DNA of 64,000 bases from an uncultured virus (IMG/VR IMGVR_UViG_3300031088_000789) (IMGVR_UViG_3300031088_000789), one strand, 5' to 3'; positions 3,901 through 48,385 are shown, numbered from the stretch's first letter. Numbers and translations: made by a program. The notes: a model not told the origin generated them from the letters alone.

Positions 3901-5019
3901 ATGTCTATTTTTCCACGTATTGAAACCCTCGATGACATGATGCCGCACATCAAAGACTGTGCATACATTTCTGTCAATAAACAGTCGAATGGTGCAAGCG
4001 TTGTTTGCTATAACATCAGCAACGGCGAGTCGTTCAGAACCCCAGTGGAAAAAGAAGCTCGCGGGATTACCTTTGATGATGCAGGCAAAATTCTGTCTCG
4101 CCCATTGCACAAGTTTTTCAACTTGGCAGAGCGTGCTGAAGTGCAACCAGCGGTTTTGGATTGGAACACAATGGTTGCAGGCTTTGACAAAATGGATGGT
4201 TCCATGATTTCTGGTGGCTTCTATAAAGGTGAGCTGTTCCTGAAATCGAAGAAGTCTTTCAAGTCGGACGTAGCTGTTTCGGCAGAAGGGTTTGTTGCTC
4301 AAAACCAAAAATATTATGACTTCACTAAATATTGCTCGCAGGCCAACCTGTCGCCAATTTTTGAATTCACTTCACCTAAACATCGTATCGTGTTGCGTTA
4401 TGACGAAGAAAACATGACTTTGCTGCATGTTCGTCATAATGTAACAGGTGAATATCTGATGCCTGTTGAAAAAGAGCGTTTGGCAGCACGGTTTGATATT
4501 CCTGTTAACAAACCTTTGTTTGGTGGTGAATTCGACATGGCTGACCTGTTGAAATCTCTGAACACTGTTGAAGGCATTGAAGGGTATGTTATCCAGTTTG
4601 CAAACGGCGAAATGGTTAAAATCAAAACCAAATGGTATATGAACCTTCACCATGCTGTTACCTTTGTGCGTGAGCGTGATATTGCCCGGTTGGTGGTTGA
4701 TGAAAAACTGGATGACTTCATTGCTTATCTGTCACTGAACGCACCAGAAGCTGATTTGAGCCATATCCACCGTATCAATGATGGTATCAAATCTGACATT
4801 GAAACCCTTGCACAATCAGTAAATGCGGTAGCAGAACAATACAAAGATGTTGATATTAAAACAGCGGCAATTGAACTGAAAGGTCATGAAAACTTTGGTT
4901 TCATCATGGGGGTAATTCGTGGTCACAAAAACGACTACTTGACCTATTATGCACGGAACCGCTTGAACGATTGGTCTTTGGAACAGGTTGATTTGGGTAG
5001 CTTCTCAAACGGAGTGTAA
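3901..5019 (+). CDS. T4 RNA ligase 1 (RnlA)-like RNA ligase
   Basis: EARG, SRPLHKFFN, motif I KMDGS, FEFTSP, motif IV EGYVI, motif V KIKTKWY. Confidence 0.9.
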   Translation: MSIFPRIETLDDMMPHIKDCAYISVNKQSNGASVVCYNISNGESFRTPVEKEARGITFDDAGKILSRPLHKFFNLAERAEVQPAVLDWNTMVAGFDKMDGSMISGGFYKGELFLKSKKSFKSDVAVSAEGFVAQNQKYYDFTKYCSQANLSPIFEFTSPKHRIVLRYDEENMTLLHVRHNVTGEYLMPVEKERLAARFDIPVNKPLFGGEFDMADLLKSLNTVEGIEGYVIQFANGEMVKIKTKWYMNLHHAVTFVRERDIARLVVDEKLDDFIAYLSLNAPEADLSHIHRINDGIKSDIETLAQSVNAVAEQYKDVDIKTAAIELKGHENFGFIMGVIRGHKNDYLTYYARNRLNDWSLEQVDLGSFSNGV

Positions 5020-5934: not shown

Positions 5935-5988
5935 TCTGAAAAGCAGATTTTGTTATAATACTGCCAGCCAATTATGATGGAGATTCAA

Positions 5989-7110
5989 ATGACTTATCAG
6001 AAAAAACTCTACCAGCAACTTATGACGCTGTTGGAAACCAATCCGGGTTCCTTTAAATATCGTGATGAAATTTCGTCGGTTGATGGCGGGACGTATCGTG
6101 TCTTTAACTATGACATTCCCAAACACTCTGAATTCAAACTTCCCGCTGCAAAAGATTGCCGTGGGGTGATGTTCTATATGGGTGGTGAAGAACCCCAGCT
6201 TGTGGCTTTGCCTATGCAAAAATTCTTCTCGTTGGGCGAAACTCCAGAAACGCAAAAAGTTAAACCAGAAGAAGCGGATTTTGCCTACCTGAAACCTGAT
6301 GGTTCTCTACTGACTAGCTATATTTCGCCAGTCAATGATAAGCTCTATTACAAGAGCAAAAAGAAACCAACTTTCAACGACTATGATTTGGTTGAAAAGT
6401 CGATTAGTCCAGCACTCCAAGCCGAAATTGAACGACTCACCCGCACTGGTGTATCGCTTGATTTGGAATTGACCACTCCGAAAAACCGTGTTTTCATTGA
6501 ATACACTGATTACGAAGTGCATGTATTGAAAGCTCGTGACATGAGCACTGGCGAGTATGTTGATATTCGTTCGGCTGAATTTGCTGCTGCATATCCTGTT
6601 ATTGCTGCCCATTTGGTCAAGCGTATTCCTATCAATGAACTCAATGTTAATGACCCTGAAATTGAAGGTTACGTCATTGAAATTGGCCCTGATATGTATA
6701 AGGTAAAGACCATTCCTTACCTGAAAATGTCGGCAGTTGTCAACATTCAAGACCGCTCGAAAGAACGTCAGTTCATCTACGAAGCAACCTTGCATGAAAT
6801 TCTGGATGAAATTCGTTCTCTGTATCATTACCGAACTCACAGTGAAAACTTCCCATTGGCTGAAATTCTGGCCCGCCTTGATGAAGTTGAAGACTATGCT
6901 CGTAAGAGCTATCATTACCTTGTTCGCACTGTTGAAGGCTTCTATGCTGAAAATAAAGACTTGGAACGTGGTGATTATGCTCGAAAAGCAAAAGAAGAAG
7001 CACCTTTGCTGCTTTCTGTGCTGATGAGTAAATATTCGGGTGATGATATTGATTACAAGAAATCGGCCATTATGGTGTTTTCTCGTAAACAAGTCCCCAT
7101 CCCTAATTAA
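5989..7110 (+). CDS. second T4 Rnl1-like RNA ligase
   Basis: DCRG, PMQKFF, motif I KPDGS, LELTTP, EGYVI, KVKT. Confidence 0.88.
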   Translation: MTYQKKLYQQLMTLLETNPGSFKYRDEISSVDGGTYRVFNYDIPKHSEFKLPAAKDCRGVMFYMGGEEPQLVALPMQKFFSLGETPETQKVKPEEADFAYLKPDGSLLTSYISPVNDKLYYKSKKKPTFNDYDLVEKSISPALQAEIERLTRTGVSLDLELTTPKNRVFIEYTDYEVHVLKARDMSTGEYVDIRSAEFAAAYPVIAAHLVKRIPINELNVNDPEIEGYVIEIGPDMYKVKTIPYLKMSAVVNIQDRSKERQFIYEATLHEILDEIRSLYHYRTHSENFPLAEILARLDEVEDYARKSYHYLVRTVEGFYAENKDLERGDYARKAKEEAPLLLSVLMSKYSGDDIDYKKSAIMVFSRKQVPIPN

Positions 7111-39371: not shown

Positions 39372-40040
39372 ATGCTCATAAAAAAATTAAAGAATATCGC
39401 TGGTGGCGTTACTTTGCTTGAACCACTTATGGGGATTGGTATCATCATGGTGATTATTATAGGGATAATCACCTATTATAATGCTGCTACTAAAAAAGCT
39501 GATTCTGATTTTATTGATATTGTTAATTTTGGATATTTATTAAATGAAGTGCATTCGGATAAAGATTCAATTACTTTAAAATACAATGAAATCGTACCCT
39601 TTCAACAAGATCTCTTTAAGAAATTAGATTGCACTAAACTCATATGTAAGCCTTTTGATTTAATTAAATATCCTCCTAATACTTATTTATCTATTTCTTA
39701 TAAAAACTCAAACTTTGAGTCTTTTAAGATCTATACAAAAATAAGTAGTTCTATATTTGAGTTCACTGATATTCCATATAATGACTGGGTTTCAAAAATG
39801 CCTTATAGTGAATTTACACAACAACAAGAGATATTAGTAAAAAAGGAGTTAAAACGTAATCCTAAACTTAATCCTATCATTGTTAATTTAACCAAACTAT
39901 TTGATAATATTTCTATTTATAAGGCATTAGACAGTGACGGTTCAATTGTCACAGATAGCTATTGTCCAGAATCTACTTGCAGTAGTATTTTAGAATACAA
40001 ACATAAGTCAATTAACTCAACACTTATTACTCATAAATAA
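39372..40040 (+). CDS. type IV pilin-like protein
   Basis: G|VTLLE class III signal, hydrophobic helix, C-terminal Cys pair. Confidence 0.7.
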   Translation: MLIKKLKNIAGGVTLLEPLMGIGIIMVIIIGIITYYNAATKKADSDFIDIVNFGYLLNEVHSDKDSITLKYNEIVPFQQDLFKKLDCTKLICKPFDLIKYPPNTYLSISYKNSNFESFKIYTKISSSIFEFTDIPYNDWVSKMPYSEFTQQQEILVKKELKRNPKLNPIIVNLTKLFDNISIYKALDSDGSIVTDSYCPESTCSSILEYKHKSINSTLITHK

Positions 40041-47546: not shown

Positions 47547-47614
47547 ATTTTTACTTGTTTTCAAATTAGAAATTTGTTAACATAACTATCTAGACTCAAT
47601 GTATGAGGTTTACC

Positions 47615-47797
47615 ATGGCTGGCTATATTCATGATGATGTTCGTGAAATTATGGAAAACGCAGCAGATCCTGAAAACAAAACTGGTCCGTCTACCGTAGG
47701 TTTTACGCCTGAACAGTTAGAAGCTGTTAACATTATGTTGCAGTATAGCTGGAATCGTGGCTATAAATCGGCTTGCCAAGATCGGGATGAAGGGTAA
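47615..47797 (+). CDS. hypothetical protein
   Basis: GAGG RBS. Confidence 0.65.
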   Translation: MAGYIHDDVREIMENAADPENKTGPSTVGFTPEQLEAVNIMLQYSWNRGYKSACQDRDEG

Positions 47798-48010
47798 ATC
47801 TTCAAAAAACAATTGATTTATTCATGATTTTGCAGTAGAATATGATTTCAATAACGCAGCAAACAGTTATGTAGTTGAGCAATAAAAAGTTTTAAAAAGT
47901 TGGCAAAAAAGGCTTGCACAGATACACCAACTTTGATATACTGCAACGCATAAAGGGTAGATGATAAAGTCTACGGGTGGAGGCGGTGACGCGGGCTAGC
48001 CACTAAATAA

Positions 48011-48095
48011 GCCCATGTGGTGAAATTGGTAGACGCGGTGGATTCAAAATCCTCTGTCGAAAGACGTGTCGGTTCGAGTCCGACCTTGGGCACCA
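48011..48095 (+). tRNA. tRNA-Leu(CAA)
   Basis: Paralog of 20381..20465; one U-U mismatch in the anticodon stem. Confidence 0.92.
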
Positions 48096-48109
48096 AATTT
48101 AAGTTTTAT

Positions 48110-48276
48110 GGCTGTTGCTAAACTGGATCGGCTGGAAGTGTCAAACGTGCAGACACCGAGAGTCGTGGATGTGGAGGCGGAGTGAAGATGAAATAACAAG
48201 TCAGAAGAGATTGCACGTACTCCGAGGCTTGTGAAATAGTCCTAACTTGGTGGTTCGACCCCATCAACAGCTACCA
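48110..48276 (+). ncRNA. tRNA-like RNA with large pseudoknotted insert
   Basis: Acceptor GGCTGTT/AACAGCT-A-CCA, T arm GGTGG-TTCGACC-CCATC, ~130 nt interior with 4 interlocking helices. Confidence 0.75.
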
Positions 48277-48385
48277 AACACTAAACCACCTTCGGGTGGT
48301 TTTTTATTGTCTAAAATAATTTGATTTTTATCTACACATTCGTTATAATAAAACTCTATTTTTATCATTATATGAGGATGCATAT

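What the first reader, a model, noticed from the sequence alone, without database searches (positions are those of the whole stretch)
48110..48276. 167-nt tRNA-like RNA with a pseudoknotted core and an internal SD-ATG-AAA-TAA minigene
Seen: 14 nt after tRNA-Leu(CAA) there is a 7-bp acceptor stem (GGCTGTT/AACAGCT), A discriminator, CCA, a canonical T arm (GGTGG-TTCGACC-CCATC) and a D-loop-like CTGGATC, but no anticodon arm. The interior forms interlocking helices: GTGTC(48138)/GACAC(48152), whose loop ACGTGCA pairs with TGCACGT(48212); CGGAGT(48178)/ACTCCG(48219), whose loop ACAAGTC(48196) pairs with GGCTTGT(48226). GGAG-5nt-ATG AAA TAA lies at 48179..48196, with the SD inside a helix. Established: tmRNA has this tRNA-like-domain-plus-pseudoknot layout but is about twice as long and has G3-U70, which is absent here (C3-G70). 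Inference: a mini tmRNA-like RNA or tRNA mimic (decoy for anticodon nucleases, SmpB or EF-Tu, or a ribosome trap).
Basis: partly seen in the sequence, partly recalled or inferred. Interest (0 to 1): 0.82.

Follow-up and report, generated by a model that had tools for sequence, protein, structure and literature searches.

The report
Anticodon-less tRNA look-alike of jumbo phage
A large uncultured phage makes, together with a leucine tRNA, a conserved 167-base RNA that keeps the top half of a tRNA but carries a knotted fold where the codon-reading arm should be; it is a real gene of a known but unexplained kind, and it is not a small tmRNA.

Summary
The sequence features are real. Window 48110-48276 has a 7-pair acceptor stem (six Watson-Crick pairs plus G1·U72), an A discriminator, an encoded CCA and a canonical T arm, and no D stem or anticodon arm. 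It lies 14 nt after tRNA-Leu(CAA), between a sigma-70-type promoter and an intrinsic terminator.

Two homologues were found, 92% and 87% identical, both 167 nt with no indels. All 26 variable columns fall in the interior. The variation supports three helices:
- hairpin 29-33/43-47;
- helix 69-74/110-115 (G-C, G·U, A-U);
- the loop-to-loop pairing 36-42/103-109.

Neither ARAGORN nor Rfam calls it a tRNA or a tmRNA. There is no G3·U70, no tag-like frame, and its likeness to the E. coli tmRNA ends is at chance level.

Best reading: a non-decoding tRNA-derived stable RNA. The tRNA top half drives processing and stability, and the knotted insert is the working part. Its target is unknown. The closest analogue is phage T4 RNAC, whose role is also unknown.

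It is a new variant of a known kind, of moderate interest.

The parts
47914..47942 (+). Sigma-70-type promoter: TTGCAC, 17-nt spacer, TATACT
   Evidence: Read. The scan lists the overlapping TGCACA-16-TATACT. In the 3-sequence alignment the hexamers are conserved while the spacer varies.
47949..48010 (+). Conserved 5' leader of about 60 nt before tRNA-Leu; it contains GTGGAGGCGG at 47977-47986. The start coordinate is approximate.
   Evidence: The alignment is nearly invariant from CATAAAGGG to the tRNA. One search finds this 10-mer exactly twice in the 64 kb, here and inside the element.
48011..48095 (+). tRNA-Leu(CAA), co-transcribed upstream gene
   Evidence: ARAGORN; Rfam RF00005, 47.9 bits.
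48110..48276 (+). The 167-nt tRNA-like RNA, whole gene
   Evidence: (R1 model 214.8 bits).
48110..48116 (+). Acceptor stem 5' strand (pairs with 48266-48272; G1·U72 wobble plus 6 Watson-Crick pairs)
   Evidence: 7 pairs, invariant in 3 of 3 sequences.
48125..48128 (+). GGAU, tentative helix with GUCC/AUCU at 48239-48242 (element 16-19/130-133)
   Evidence: 4 pairs, 2 with one-sided changes that keep pairing. Weak support; the GG could instead contact the T loop.
48129..48165 (+). Extended hairpin: 20-24/52-56 plus 29-33/43-47, with a 9-nt loop
   Evidence: Pair 29:47 goes G-C to G·U. Pair 23:53 goes C-G to G·U (both sides changed) in L050, but pairs 23:53 and 24:52 are broken in L053.
48145..48151 (+). 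Hairpin-loop strand ACGUGCA of the pseudoknot (pairs with 48212-48218)
   Evidence: 7 pairs kept in 3 of 3 sequences (A-U to G·U once). Chance occurrence is 122 of 20000 shuffles.
48178..48183 (+). Helix CGGAGU with ACUCCG at 48219-48224 (element 69-74/110-115)
   Evidence: pair 70:114 is G-C, G·U and A-U in the three sequences. This is the cleanest double-sided covariation found (23:53 also changes on both sides but is unpaired in one homologue).
48188..48196 (+). AUG AAA UAA minigene in the large loop
   Evidence: AUG AAA UAA in two sequences and AUG GAA UAG in L050. Translation is not supported (see rivals).
48212..48224 (+). Continuous 13-nt strand UGCACGU-ACUCCG that pairs with both the hairpin loop and 48178-48183 (likely coaxial stack)
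   Evidence: The stacking itself is inferred.
48249..48265 (+). T arm GGUGG-UUCGACC-CCAUC
   Evidence: invariant in 3 of 3 sequences.
48266..48276 (+). Acceptor 3' strand AACAGCU, discriminator A, encoded CCA
48283..48308 (+). Intrinsic terminator AAACCACC-UUCG-GGUGGUUU followed by a T run
   Evidence: In L050 the stem reads GCCACC/GGUGGC, a compensatory change.

Best explanation
This is a real phage gene for a stable, non-decoding tRNA-like RNA.

Proposed maturation:
1. Host RNA polymerase starts at a sigma-70-type promoter and transcribes leader, tRNA-Leu(CAA) and the 167-nt RNA up to an intrinsic terminator.
2. The invariant tRNA top half (acceptor stem, T arm, ACCA) makes the RNA a substrate for the host's tRNA-maturing enzymes. 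RNase P would cut before G1, and the 7-nt trailer plus terminator would be trimmed back to the encoded CCA.
3. The RNA then accumulates like a tRNA.

Where the D stem and anticodon arm should be, it carries about 115 nt folded into a hairpin (20-56) whose loop pairs with the strand next to a second helix (69-74/110-115). This gives a compact pseudoknotted core. The RNA cannot read a codon.

I read the tRNA half as a built-in processing and stability scaffold. It may also be a handle for a protein that binds the acceptor/T-arm. I read the knotted insert as the working part.

Shown: the gene, its transcription signals, the tRNA top half, three interior helices and its conservation.
Inferred: processing, accumulation, and that it acts by mimicry or binding.
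Unknown: the target.
For: (1) The tRNA top-half signature is not chance: 0 hits in 30 shuffles against 7 rows in the window.

(2) The transcription unit is complete. The promoter hexamers are conserved over a variable spacer. The terminator carries a compensatory stem change in L050. The AU-rich 14-nt spacer after the tRNA is typical of tRNA operons.

(3) Two homologues were found, L053 (the same sequence as G001:39660-39826) and L050. By my count they are 154/167 and 146/167 identical. All three are exactly 167 nt.

(4) All 26 variable columns lie in 23-133 and none in the 56 columns of the tRNA half.

(5) Only 16,930 of the window's 64,000 bases align to that 290-kb relative at all, in blocks of 67-90% identity. 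The RNA is therefore among the best-kept sequences between the two phages.

(7) The loop-loop pairing has a chance rate of 122 in 20000.

(8) The 3' half is most like another phage tRNA-like gene, G001:129761-129837 (24 of 29 identical). The model R1 otherwise picks up only tRNA-Leu genes at 10-19 bits. This points to an origin from a phage tRNA gene.

(9) Precedent: T4 rnaC (139 nt) ends the T4 tRNA cluster and has a T arm, CCGGG-UUCGAAU-CCCGG, near its 3' end. Its role is still called unknown in the passages read from PMC3014915 and PMC9697503.
Against: - No RNA evidence for a processed 167-nt species was obtained.
- Only three distinct sequences exist. Double-sided covariation rests on two pairs, and the column-shuffle control is uninformative (247-345 of 500 shuffles reach the observed values).
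- The unconstrained MFE is no better than shuffles.
- Helix 20-24/52-56 loses two pairs in L053, and hairpin 88-91/97-100 is absent in the window.
- G8 replaces the usual U8 and there is no D stem, so a tRNA-like L-shape is assumed, not shown.
- Nothing here identifies a binding partner.
- A more distant relative with the same upstream small protein (L087) has tRNAs but no such RNA, so the RNA is dispensable at that distance.
Confidence: 0.6

Rival explanations
1. A decoy of the tmRNA tRNA-like domain. The RNA would bind SmpB (or alanyl-tRNA synthetase or EF-Tu) and block host trans-translation, as proposed for the 'TLD only' tmRNA of mycobacteriophage DS6A.
For: The layout is tmRNA-like: acceptor, stemless D-loop-like segment, pseudoknotted interior, T arm. 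CUGGAU-CGGCUGGA resembles CUGGAUUCGACGGGA of E. coli tmRNA, and five consecutive acceptor pairs (G·U, G-C, C-G, U-A, G-C) are the same but shifted by two. The DS6A precedent appears in passages of PMC4131195 and PMC11915505.
Against: The resemblance is at chance level: 210 of 2000 shuffles (5' end) and 761 of 2000 (3' end) score as high. There is no RF00023 hit at E<=10 on the element or at E<=1 in the homologous record, although tRNAs there are hit. ARAGORN calls no tmRNA, even at an 80% threshold. The G·U pair sits at 1:72, not 3:70. The 3' half resembles a phage tRNA-like gene more than tmRNA.
Confidence: 0.1
2. A ribosome trap or minigene. GGAGG (64-68) or GGAG (70-73) recruits 30S subunits to AUG-AAA-UAA. 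Translation would release fMet-Lys-tRNA or stall ribosomes, in the manner of the lambda bar minigenes (recalled, not read here).
For: AUG-NNN-stop is kept in 3 of 3 sequences, with UAA changed to UAG in L050. It lies in the large, probably unpaired loop 75-87. A GGAGG-type motif recurs in the operon leader.
Against: The codon changes from AAA to GAA, so no single tRNA is targeted. Keeping the stop through one A-to-G change has a chance of about 1 in 3. G67A weakens GGAGG in L053, and G70A removes GGAG in L050, where it is compensated at 114 as a structural pair. The longer frame GCA...UAA is open in all three, but its 12 changes fall 4/3/5 on codon positions 1/2/3 (my count), which is not a coding pattern.
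Confidence: 0.07
3. An aminoacylated, anticodon-independent carrier. A synthetase that ignores the anticodon (LeuRS is the candidate: A73, position beside tRNA-Leu) charges it. The aminoacyl-RNA would then serve a non-ribosomal use or jam a tRNA-binding factor.
For: The acceptor stem is intact and invariant, with A73 and an encoded CCA. The R1 model picks out tRNA-Leu genes as its next-best matches. The gene follows tRNA-Leu in all three loci.
Against: No charging data exist. G8 and the missing D stem remove the tertiary elements that I recall as LeuRS identity determinants in E. coli. G1·U72 is unusual for any elongator tRNA. The tRNA-Leu matches are only 10-19 bits.
Confidence: 0.1
4. An intron-containing or decaying tRNA gene. 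It would either splice to a cloverleaf or be a dead tRNA carrying an insertion.
For: With introns allowed and the threshold lowered to 80%, ARAGORN draws a 'tRNA-Cys(GCA)' with a 70-nt intron. Lak megaphage tRNAs 'larger than expected' were evaluated for introns (PMC6784885 passage).
Against: There is no call at default or 90% thresholds. The 80% setting yields 531 'genes' in the 290-kb relative and 116 in the window, and in the whole-window run it does not list this element, so the call is noise. The drawn cloverleaf has a 3-pair D stem, a 4-pair anticodon stem and an unstructured 27-nt variable region, and its A73 does not fit Cys. It also conflicts with the covarying helix 69-74/110-115. 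Against decay: there are no indels, the tRNA half is invariant, and the RNA is better conserved than nearly all flanking DNA.
Confidence: 0.04
5. Only a processing or stability signal (t-element-like) that defines or protects the 3' end of the tRNA-Leu transcript, with no function of its own.
For: tRNA top halves are used as cutting signals elsewhere; the scan's earlier notes e1-5744610 and e1-3259165 propose this for other phages (unchecked).
Against: It lies at the end of the operon directly before a terminator, so there is no downstream message to release. A signal needs only about 50 nt, yet 115 interior nt are kept at fixed length with pairing-preserving changes.
Confidence: 0.06

Closest known systems
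Phage T4 RNAC (species 1 RNA, rnaC, 139 nt; NC_000866 70908-71046)
   Same: Both are small stable RNAs encoded at the end of a phage tRNA cluster. Both have a canonical T arm near the 3' end followed by an acceptor-like strand, about 100 nt of other structure in place of the D and anticodon arms, and no known function.
   Different: No sequence or model similarity: R1 gives no match at E<=10 in the T4 region. The T4 acceptor pairing is imperfect (5 of 7 by eye) and CCA is not encoded. T4 RNAC folds far better than shuffles (z -4.57) without a pseudoknot.
tmRNA and 'TLD-only' phage tmRNA (mycobacteriophage DS6A)
   Same: Both have a tRNA-like domain without a D stem or anticodon arm, combined with pseudoknotted RNA. 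The DS6A form is proposed to titrate SmpB (passages read).
   Different: There is no G3·U70, no Rfam or ARAGORN tmRNA match, no tag-like frame, and chance-level sequence likeness. At 167 nt it is about half the length of a tmRNA.
Oversized or anticodon-less tRNA look-alikes of large phages
   Same: Same general design: acceptor, T arm and CCA are kept and the centre is remodelled. PMC6784885 mentions Lak megaphage tRNAs 'larger than expected' that could not be classified. The scan's earlier notes list further cases.
   Different: Those are described as intron-bearing or hairpin-capped. This one has a conserved long-range pseudoknot, its own promoter and terminator shared with tRNA-Leu, and no sequence relatives outside three loci.
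Bacterial Y RNA-like YrlA RNAs (tRNA mimics bound by Ro60/Rsr; PMC4201824, listing and abstract only)
   Same: Both are non-coding RNAs with a tRNA-like module, and YrlA RNAs also occur in phages.
   Different: As I recall it, in YrlA the tRNA-like module is internal and the 5' and 3' ends form the Ro-binding stem. Here the ends form the acceptor stem with CCA. No Rfam family of that type matched at E<=10.

Membership tests
tmRNA (Rfam RF00023 / ARAGORN tmRNA) | Match to the tmRNA covariance model or ARAGORN tmRNA call | tested here: not met
   No tRNA-clan hit at E<=10 on 48100-48285. RF00023 at E<=1 over the homologous 290-kb record gives 9 matches, none at 39660-39826. ARAGORN -m gives 0 genes at the default and at the 80% threshold.
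tmRNA (Rfam RF00023 / ARAGORN tmRNA) | G3·U70 alanine identity pair in the acceptor stem | tested here: not met
   3:70 is C-G in 3 of 3 sequences; the only wobble in the acceptor stem is G1·U72.
tmRNA (Rfam RF00023 / ARAGORN tmRNA) | Tag reading frame with resume codon, stop codon and a degradation-tag-like C terminus | tested here: not met
   The frame GCA...AUG AAA UAA is open in 3 of 3 sequences, but it ends in VKMK or VKME and its substitutions are spread 4/3/5 over codon positions.
tmRNA (Rfam RF00023 / ARAGORN tmRNA) | Binding to SmpB and entry into stalled ribosomes | not testable with these tools
   No SmpB gene in the related phage record. The host is unknown.
tRNA (Rfam RF00005) | Cloverleaf with D arm and anticodon arm, detected by RF00005 or ARAGORN | tested here: not met
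   No call or 108 (default and 90% thresholds, introns allowed). The 80% call is noise.
tRNA (Rfam RF00005) | 7-pair acceptor stem, 5-pair T stem with a UUCRA loop, discriminator plus CCA | tested here: met
T4 RNAC-type stable RNA of phage tRNA operons (no curated model) | Encoded in a phage tRNA operon, T arm and acceptor-like ends, 120-170 nt, non-decoding | tested here: met
T4 RNAC-type stable RNA of phage tRNA operons (no curated model) | Sequence or structure homology to T4 rnaC | tested here: not met
   R1 finds nothing at E<=10 in the T4 locus L048.
T4 RNAC-type stable RNA of phage tRNA operons (no curated model) | Accumulates as a discrete stable RNA in infected cells | not testable with these tools
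   No cultured phage. The public runs laid were contigs only.

The most novel reading that the evidence does not exclude
An independent invention of a tRNA-mRNA hybrid, unrelated to tmRNA. The RNA would be a chargeable, anticodon-less tRNA top half fused to a pseudoknotted module. That module displays an SD-like GGAGG and a start-codon-stop minigene. A jumbo phage would use it to occupy or reprogram host ribosomes, or another acceptor-end-reading factor, early in infection. The design may be shared with other odd tRNA-like RNAs of the same phage group that also expose GGAGG-type loops (G001:114546-114651).
Probability: 0.08. Interest if true: 0.9.

Novelty: new variant of a known kind. Interest (0 to 1): 0.45.

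Why it matters
Phage tRNA operons have been known since the 1970s to encode extra stable RNAs with tRNA-like ends, such as T4 RNAC and RNAD, and their roles are still unknown. This RNA is a well-delimited case. It has an invariant tRNA top half, a fixed-length pseudoknotted insert, its own promoter and terminator, and it is among the best-conserved sequences between two otherwise diverged jumbo phages.

If its partner were found, it would show what non-decoding tRNA mimics do for large phages that also carry dozens of tRNAs and two Rnl1-type RNA ligases. It would also give a natural example of the 'tRNA scaffold' principle used in RNA biotechnology.

On present evidence it adds a new family to that class. 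It does not solve the question of function.

Tried and rejected
Searches for more homologues:
- blastn 'distant' against 50,697 phage records gave 151 records. The 40 listed all cover only the tRNA-Leu part (query 95-211), and none covers 80% of the query.
- megablast of 10 kb matched tRNAs only.
- IMG/VR pattern scans:
  - One search gave 1 locus, a true relative.
  - One search gave 45 loci. In one search only L036 had the fitting acceptor/CCA arrangement, and it lies in the contig already found.
  - One search gave 1 locus, the same contig again.
- The metagenome scan gave 6 loci. Two are real (L050, L053) and 4 are chance.
- Two genome-contig scans gave 0 loci.
- Protein-anchored searches with the neighbouring cpYpsA protein returned the same contig only.
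- The conserved 64-aa upstream protein gave one further phage, L087. It has tRNAs but no element; its best R1 matches are tRNAs at 18 bits or less.
- R1 over Xanthomonas phage XacN1 and Ralstonia phage RsoM2USA gave 0 and one 17-bit match, presumably a tRNA (not inspected).

Public runs:
- 20 rows hold the stretch or part of it.
- Laying 4 runs gave contigs over parts of the element in two DNA runs (X12 48067-48231, X11 48207-48320).
- In one RNA library (X16) a contig covers 48182-48319. It runs through the terminator with 4 differences and 2 insertions.
- These are contigs. They show neither transcription nor ends, and X9 has no cover over the element.

Other leads:
- The C/D-box snoRNA-like hits on 48165-48226 (E 0.42-8.4, far below gathering scores) were taken as chance.
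- The shared 10-mer between leader and element is only marginal in a local-alignment shuffle (20 of 500).
- The minus-strand ORFs across the element stay open in the homologues. They lack context and were not pursued.
- The related record has no SmpB, CCA-adding enzyme or peptidyl-tRNA hydrolase.
- The window's own genome is not held.

Full report
**What is there**

Window 48110-48276 (+) reads, from the 5' end:
- GGCUGUU;
- a stemless segment GCUAAACUGGAUCGG;
- about 115 nt of interior;
- GGUGG-UUCGACC-CCAUC;
- AACAGCU, then A, then CCA.

The gene lies 14 nt after tRNA-Leu(CAA) at 48011-48095. Upstream are TTGCAC-17-TATACT at 47914-47942 and a leader of about 60 nt. Seven nucleotides after the CCA comes an 8-pair hairpin followed by a T run.

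A strict scan for 'T arm + 7/7 acceptor + NCCA' finds five tRNAs, this element and one alternative register in the window. It finds nothing in 30 shuffles.

**The surroundings**

The window looks like the early or accessory region of a jumbo phage.
- 99 of 117 ORFs are on one strand.
- It has seven tRNAs.
- It encodes two Rnl1-type RNA ligases, thymidine kinase, endonuclease VII, dCMP deaminase and NUDIX, and a cpYpsA SLOG protein just upstream.
- No genome is held for it.
- The nearest cultured relative by the RNA ligase is Ralstonia phage RsoM2USA, at 42% amino-acid identity.

**Detectors**

- ARAGORN and Rfam at gathering thresholds call nothing here.
- At E<=10 on the 186-nt stretch, no family of the tRNA clan appears. 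There are only weak C/D-snoRNA-like and other chance hits.
- ARAGORN with introns finds nothing at default or 90% thresholds.
- At 80% it draws a poor 'tRNA-Cys' with a 70-nt intron. That setting yields 531 calls in a 290-kb relative and 116 in the window, and in the whole-window run it drops this element. It is noise.
- The unconstrained MFE is no better than shuffles. This is not unexpected for a pseudoknotted RNA, but it gives no support either.

**Relatives**

Only two further versions were found.
- One lies in a 290-kb IMG/VR record (G001:39660-39826; the same sequence is in metagenome locus L053).
- The other lies on a 2.5-kb metagenome contig (L050).

In both, the order is promoter, conserved leader, tRNA-Leu(CAA), tRNA-Leu(UAG), element, terminator.

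Further searches gave no other homologue:
- other pattern scans;
- protein-anchored scans;
- two genome-contig scans;
- blastn against phage records;
- the covariance model R1 run over XacN1 and RsoM2USA.

A more distant phage with the same small upstream protein has tRNAs but not this RNA.

The three sequences are each exactly 167 nt. They are 92% and 87% identical to the window, and all 26 variable columns lie within positions 23-133 (counts are mine from that alignment). Only 16,930 of the window's 64,000 bases align to G001 at all, at 67-90% identity. The RNA is therefore one of the best-conserved sequences shared by the two phages.

**Structure**

Helices that all three sequences can form were listed exhaustively and counted.

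Supported:
- 29-33/43-47 (G-C to G·U);
- 69-74/110-115 (70:114 is G-C, G·U, A-U);
- the loop-to-loop pairing 36-42/103-109 (A-U to G·U), which has a chance rate of 122 in 20000.

The 3' strands of the last two are contiguous (103-115), so the two helices probably stack.

Weaker:
- 20-24/52-56. Pair 23:53 goes C-G to G·U, but two pairs are lost in L053.
- 16-19/130-133. It has two one-sided changes.
- A local hairpin 88-91/97-100, present only in the two homologues.

AA89-90 to UU breaks it elsewhere.

Positions 67 and 117 change together (G,G to A,A), which hints at a non-canonical pair beside helix 69-74/110-115.

With three sequences the shuffle control cannot discriminate. The structural case rests on pairing-preserving substitutions and on the absence of indels.

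**Not a tmRNA**

- G3·U70 is absent.
- RF00023 does not hit the element in the related record at E<=1, although it hits tRNAs there.
- The apparent likeness to the E. coli tmRNA ends is no better than shuffles. That likeness consists of CUGGAU-CG... and five acceptor pairs shifted by two.
- A frame from GCA to UAA is open in all three but shows no coding pattern and no tag-like end.
- The 3' half is instead 24/29 identical to an odd tRNA-like gene elsewhere in G001.
- R1's next-best matches are tRNA-Leu genes.

This points to descent from a phage tRNA.

**The minigene**

AUG-NNN-stop is retained (AUG GAA UAG in L050). The retention has about a one-in-three chance. Each homologue also weakens one of the two SD-like motifs, and one of those changes is a compensated structural pair. 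I give translation a low probability.

**How it most likely works**

The RNA is transcribed with tRNA-Leu and released by RNase P. It is trimmed to its encoded CCA and stabilised by its tRNA top half. It cannot decode.

The invariant top half acts as a scaffold and possibly as a handle. The fixed-length pseudoknotted insert is the effector. The target is unknown.

Phage T4 RNAC has the same layout: a T arm and acceptor-like ends at the end of the tRNA cluster. Its role is still called unknown (PMC3014915 and PMC9697503, passages).

Other precedents:
- TLD-only tmRNA in phage DS6A (PMC4131195 and PMC11915505, passages).
- Oversized unclassifiable tRNAs in Lak megaphages (PMC6784885, passage).
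- The scan's own earlier notes, which list similar anticodon-less look-alikes in other phages (unchecked).

**Verdict**

This is a real, conserved RNA gene. It is a new variant of the known but unexplained class of phage tRNA-operon stable RNAs. It is not a tmRNA and not an intron-bearing tRNA. One of the two proposed pseudoknots is supported. Interest is moderate.

Noticed in passing
window 47949-48010 (also L002:5007-5068 and L050:782-843, approximate): The 5' leader of about 60 nt before tRNA-Leu is nearly invariant in all three phages, more so than the promoter spacer. It has a hairpin (GUAGA...UCUAC) and the 10-mer GTGGAGGCGG, which occurs only twice in the 64 kb; the other copy is inside the 167-nt RNA. 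After RNase P cleavage it could be a small RNA in its own right.
   Followed up: partly
G001:C1:114546-114651 (-), = L069:147-252 (-): A second anticodon-less tRNA-like RNA in the related phage. It is 106 nt with acceptor GGAAGUG/CGCUUCC, A73, CCA and T arm GGAGG-UUCGAAU-CCUUC. ARAGORN does not call it. It matches the tmRNA model weakly (14.6 and 9.5 bits), including an ACUAAGC segment, and it exposes GCGGAGGGGUGG in a large loop.
   Followed up: partly
G001:C1:129761-129837 (-), = L057:1501-1577 (-): A 77-nt odd tRNA-like gene with its own terminator. It has G3·U70 and A73 (an alanine-type acceptor) but an aberrant anticodon loop. ARAGORN makes no call and RF00005 scores 29.5 bits. Its T arm and acceptor 3' strand are the closest match to the 167-nt RNA (24 of 29 identical).
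   Followed up: partly
G001 whole record (ARAGORN): The related phage carries 35-37 tRNA genes, all on one strand. They are dominated by Leu(UAA) x12, Met/Ile-type CAU x7 and Arg(UCU) x4. There are also two CUA-anticodon (amber suppressor type) tRNAs at 179840-179914 and 180849-180923. This could mean partial TAG recoding or help with rare codons in a GC-rich host.
   Followed up: no
window 3901-5019 and 5974-7110: Two neighbouring paralogous T4 Rnl1-type RNA ligase genes (Pfam PF09511, E 1.4e-27 and 1.8e-09). These are tRNA-repair equipment in the same early region as the tRNA genes.
   Followed up: no
window 47603-47797; L002:4661-4855; L050:359-718; L087:3001-3183: A small protein (64 aa, motif IMLQY-WNRGYKSAC, no Pfam match) sits directly upstream of the RNA operon in all three phages. 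In L050 it is tandemly duplicated within one ORF. A 64%-identical copy in a fourth phage also precedes tRNA genes.
   Followed up: partly
L053 (contig Ga0247725_1000001, 1,539,155 bp) versus IMG/VR record of 290,157 bp: The 290-kb 'provirus' record that holds the homologue is a piece of a 1.5-Mb metagenome contig. This means either an integrated or mis-joined jumbo phage or something larger. The bigger record is not held by the genome tools.
   Followed up: no
L061:1501-1606 (Xanthomonas phage XacN1 37188-37293, repeated at 355983-356088): A 106-nt stretch scores 33 bits against the tmRNA model (below the cut-off of 47). It ends in a T arm plus CACGUCC-A-CCA without an obvious 5' acceptor strand, so it may be another truncated tRNA-like piece.
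   Followed up: no
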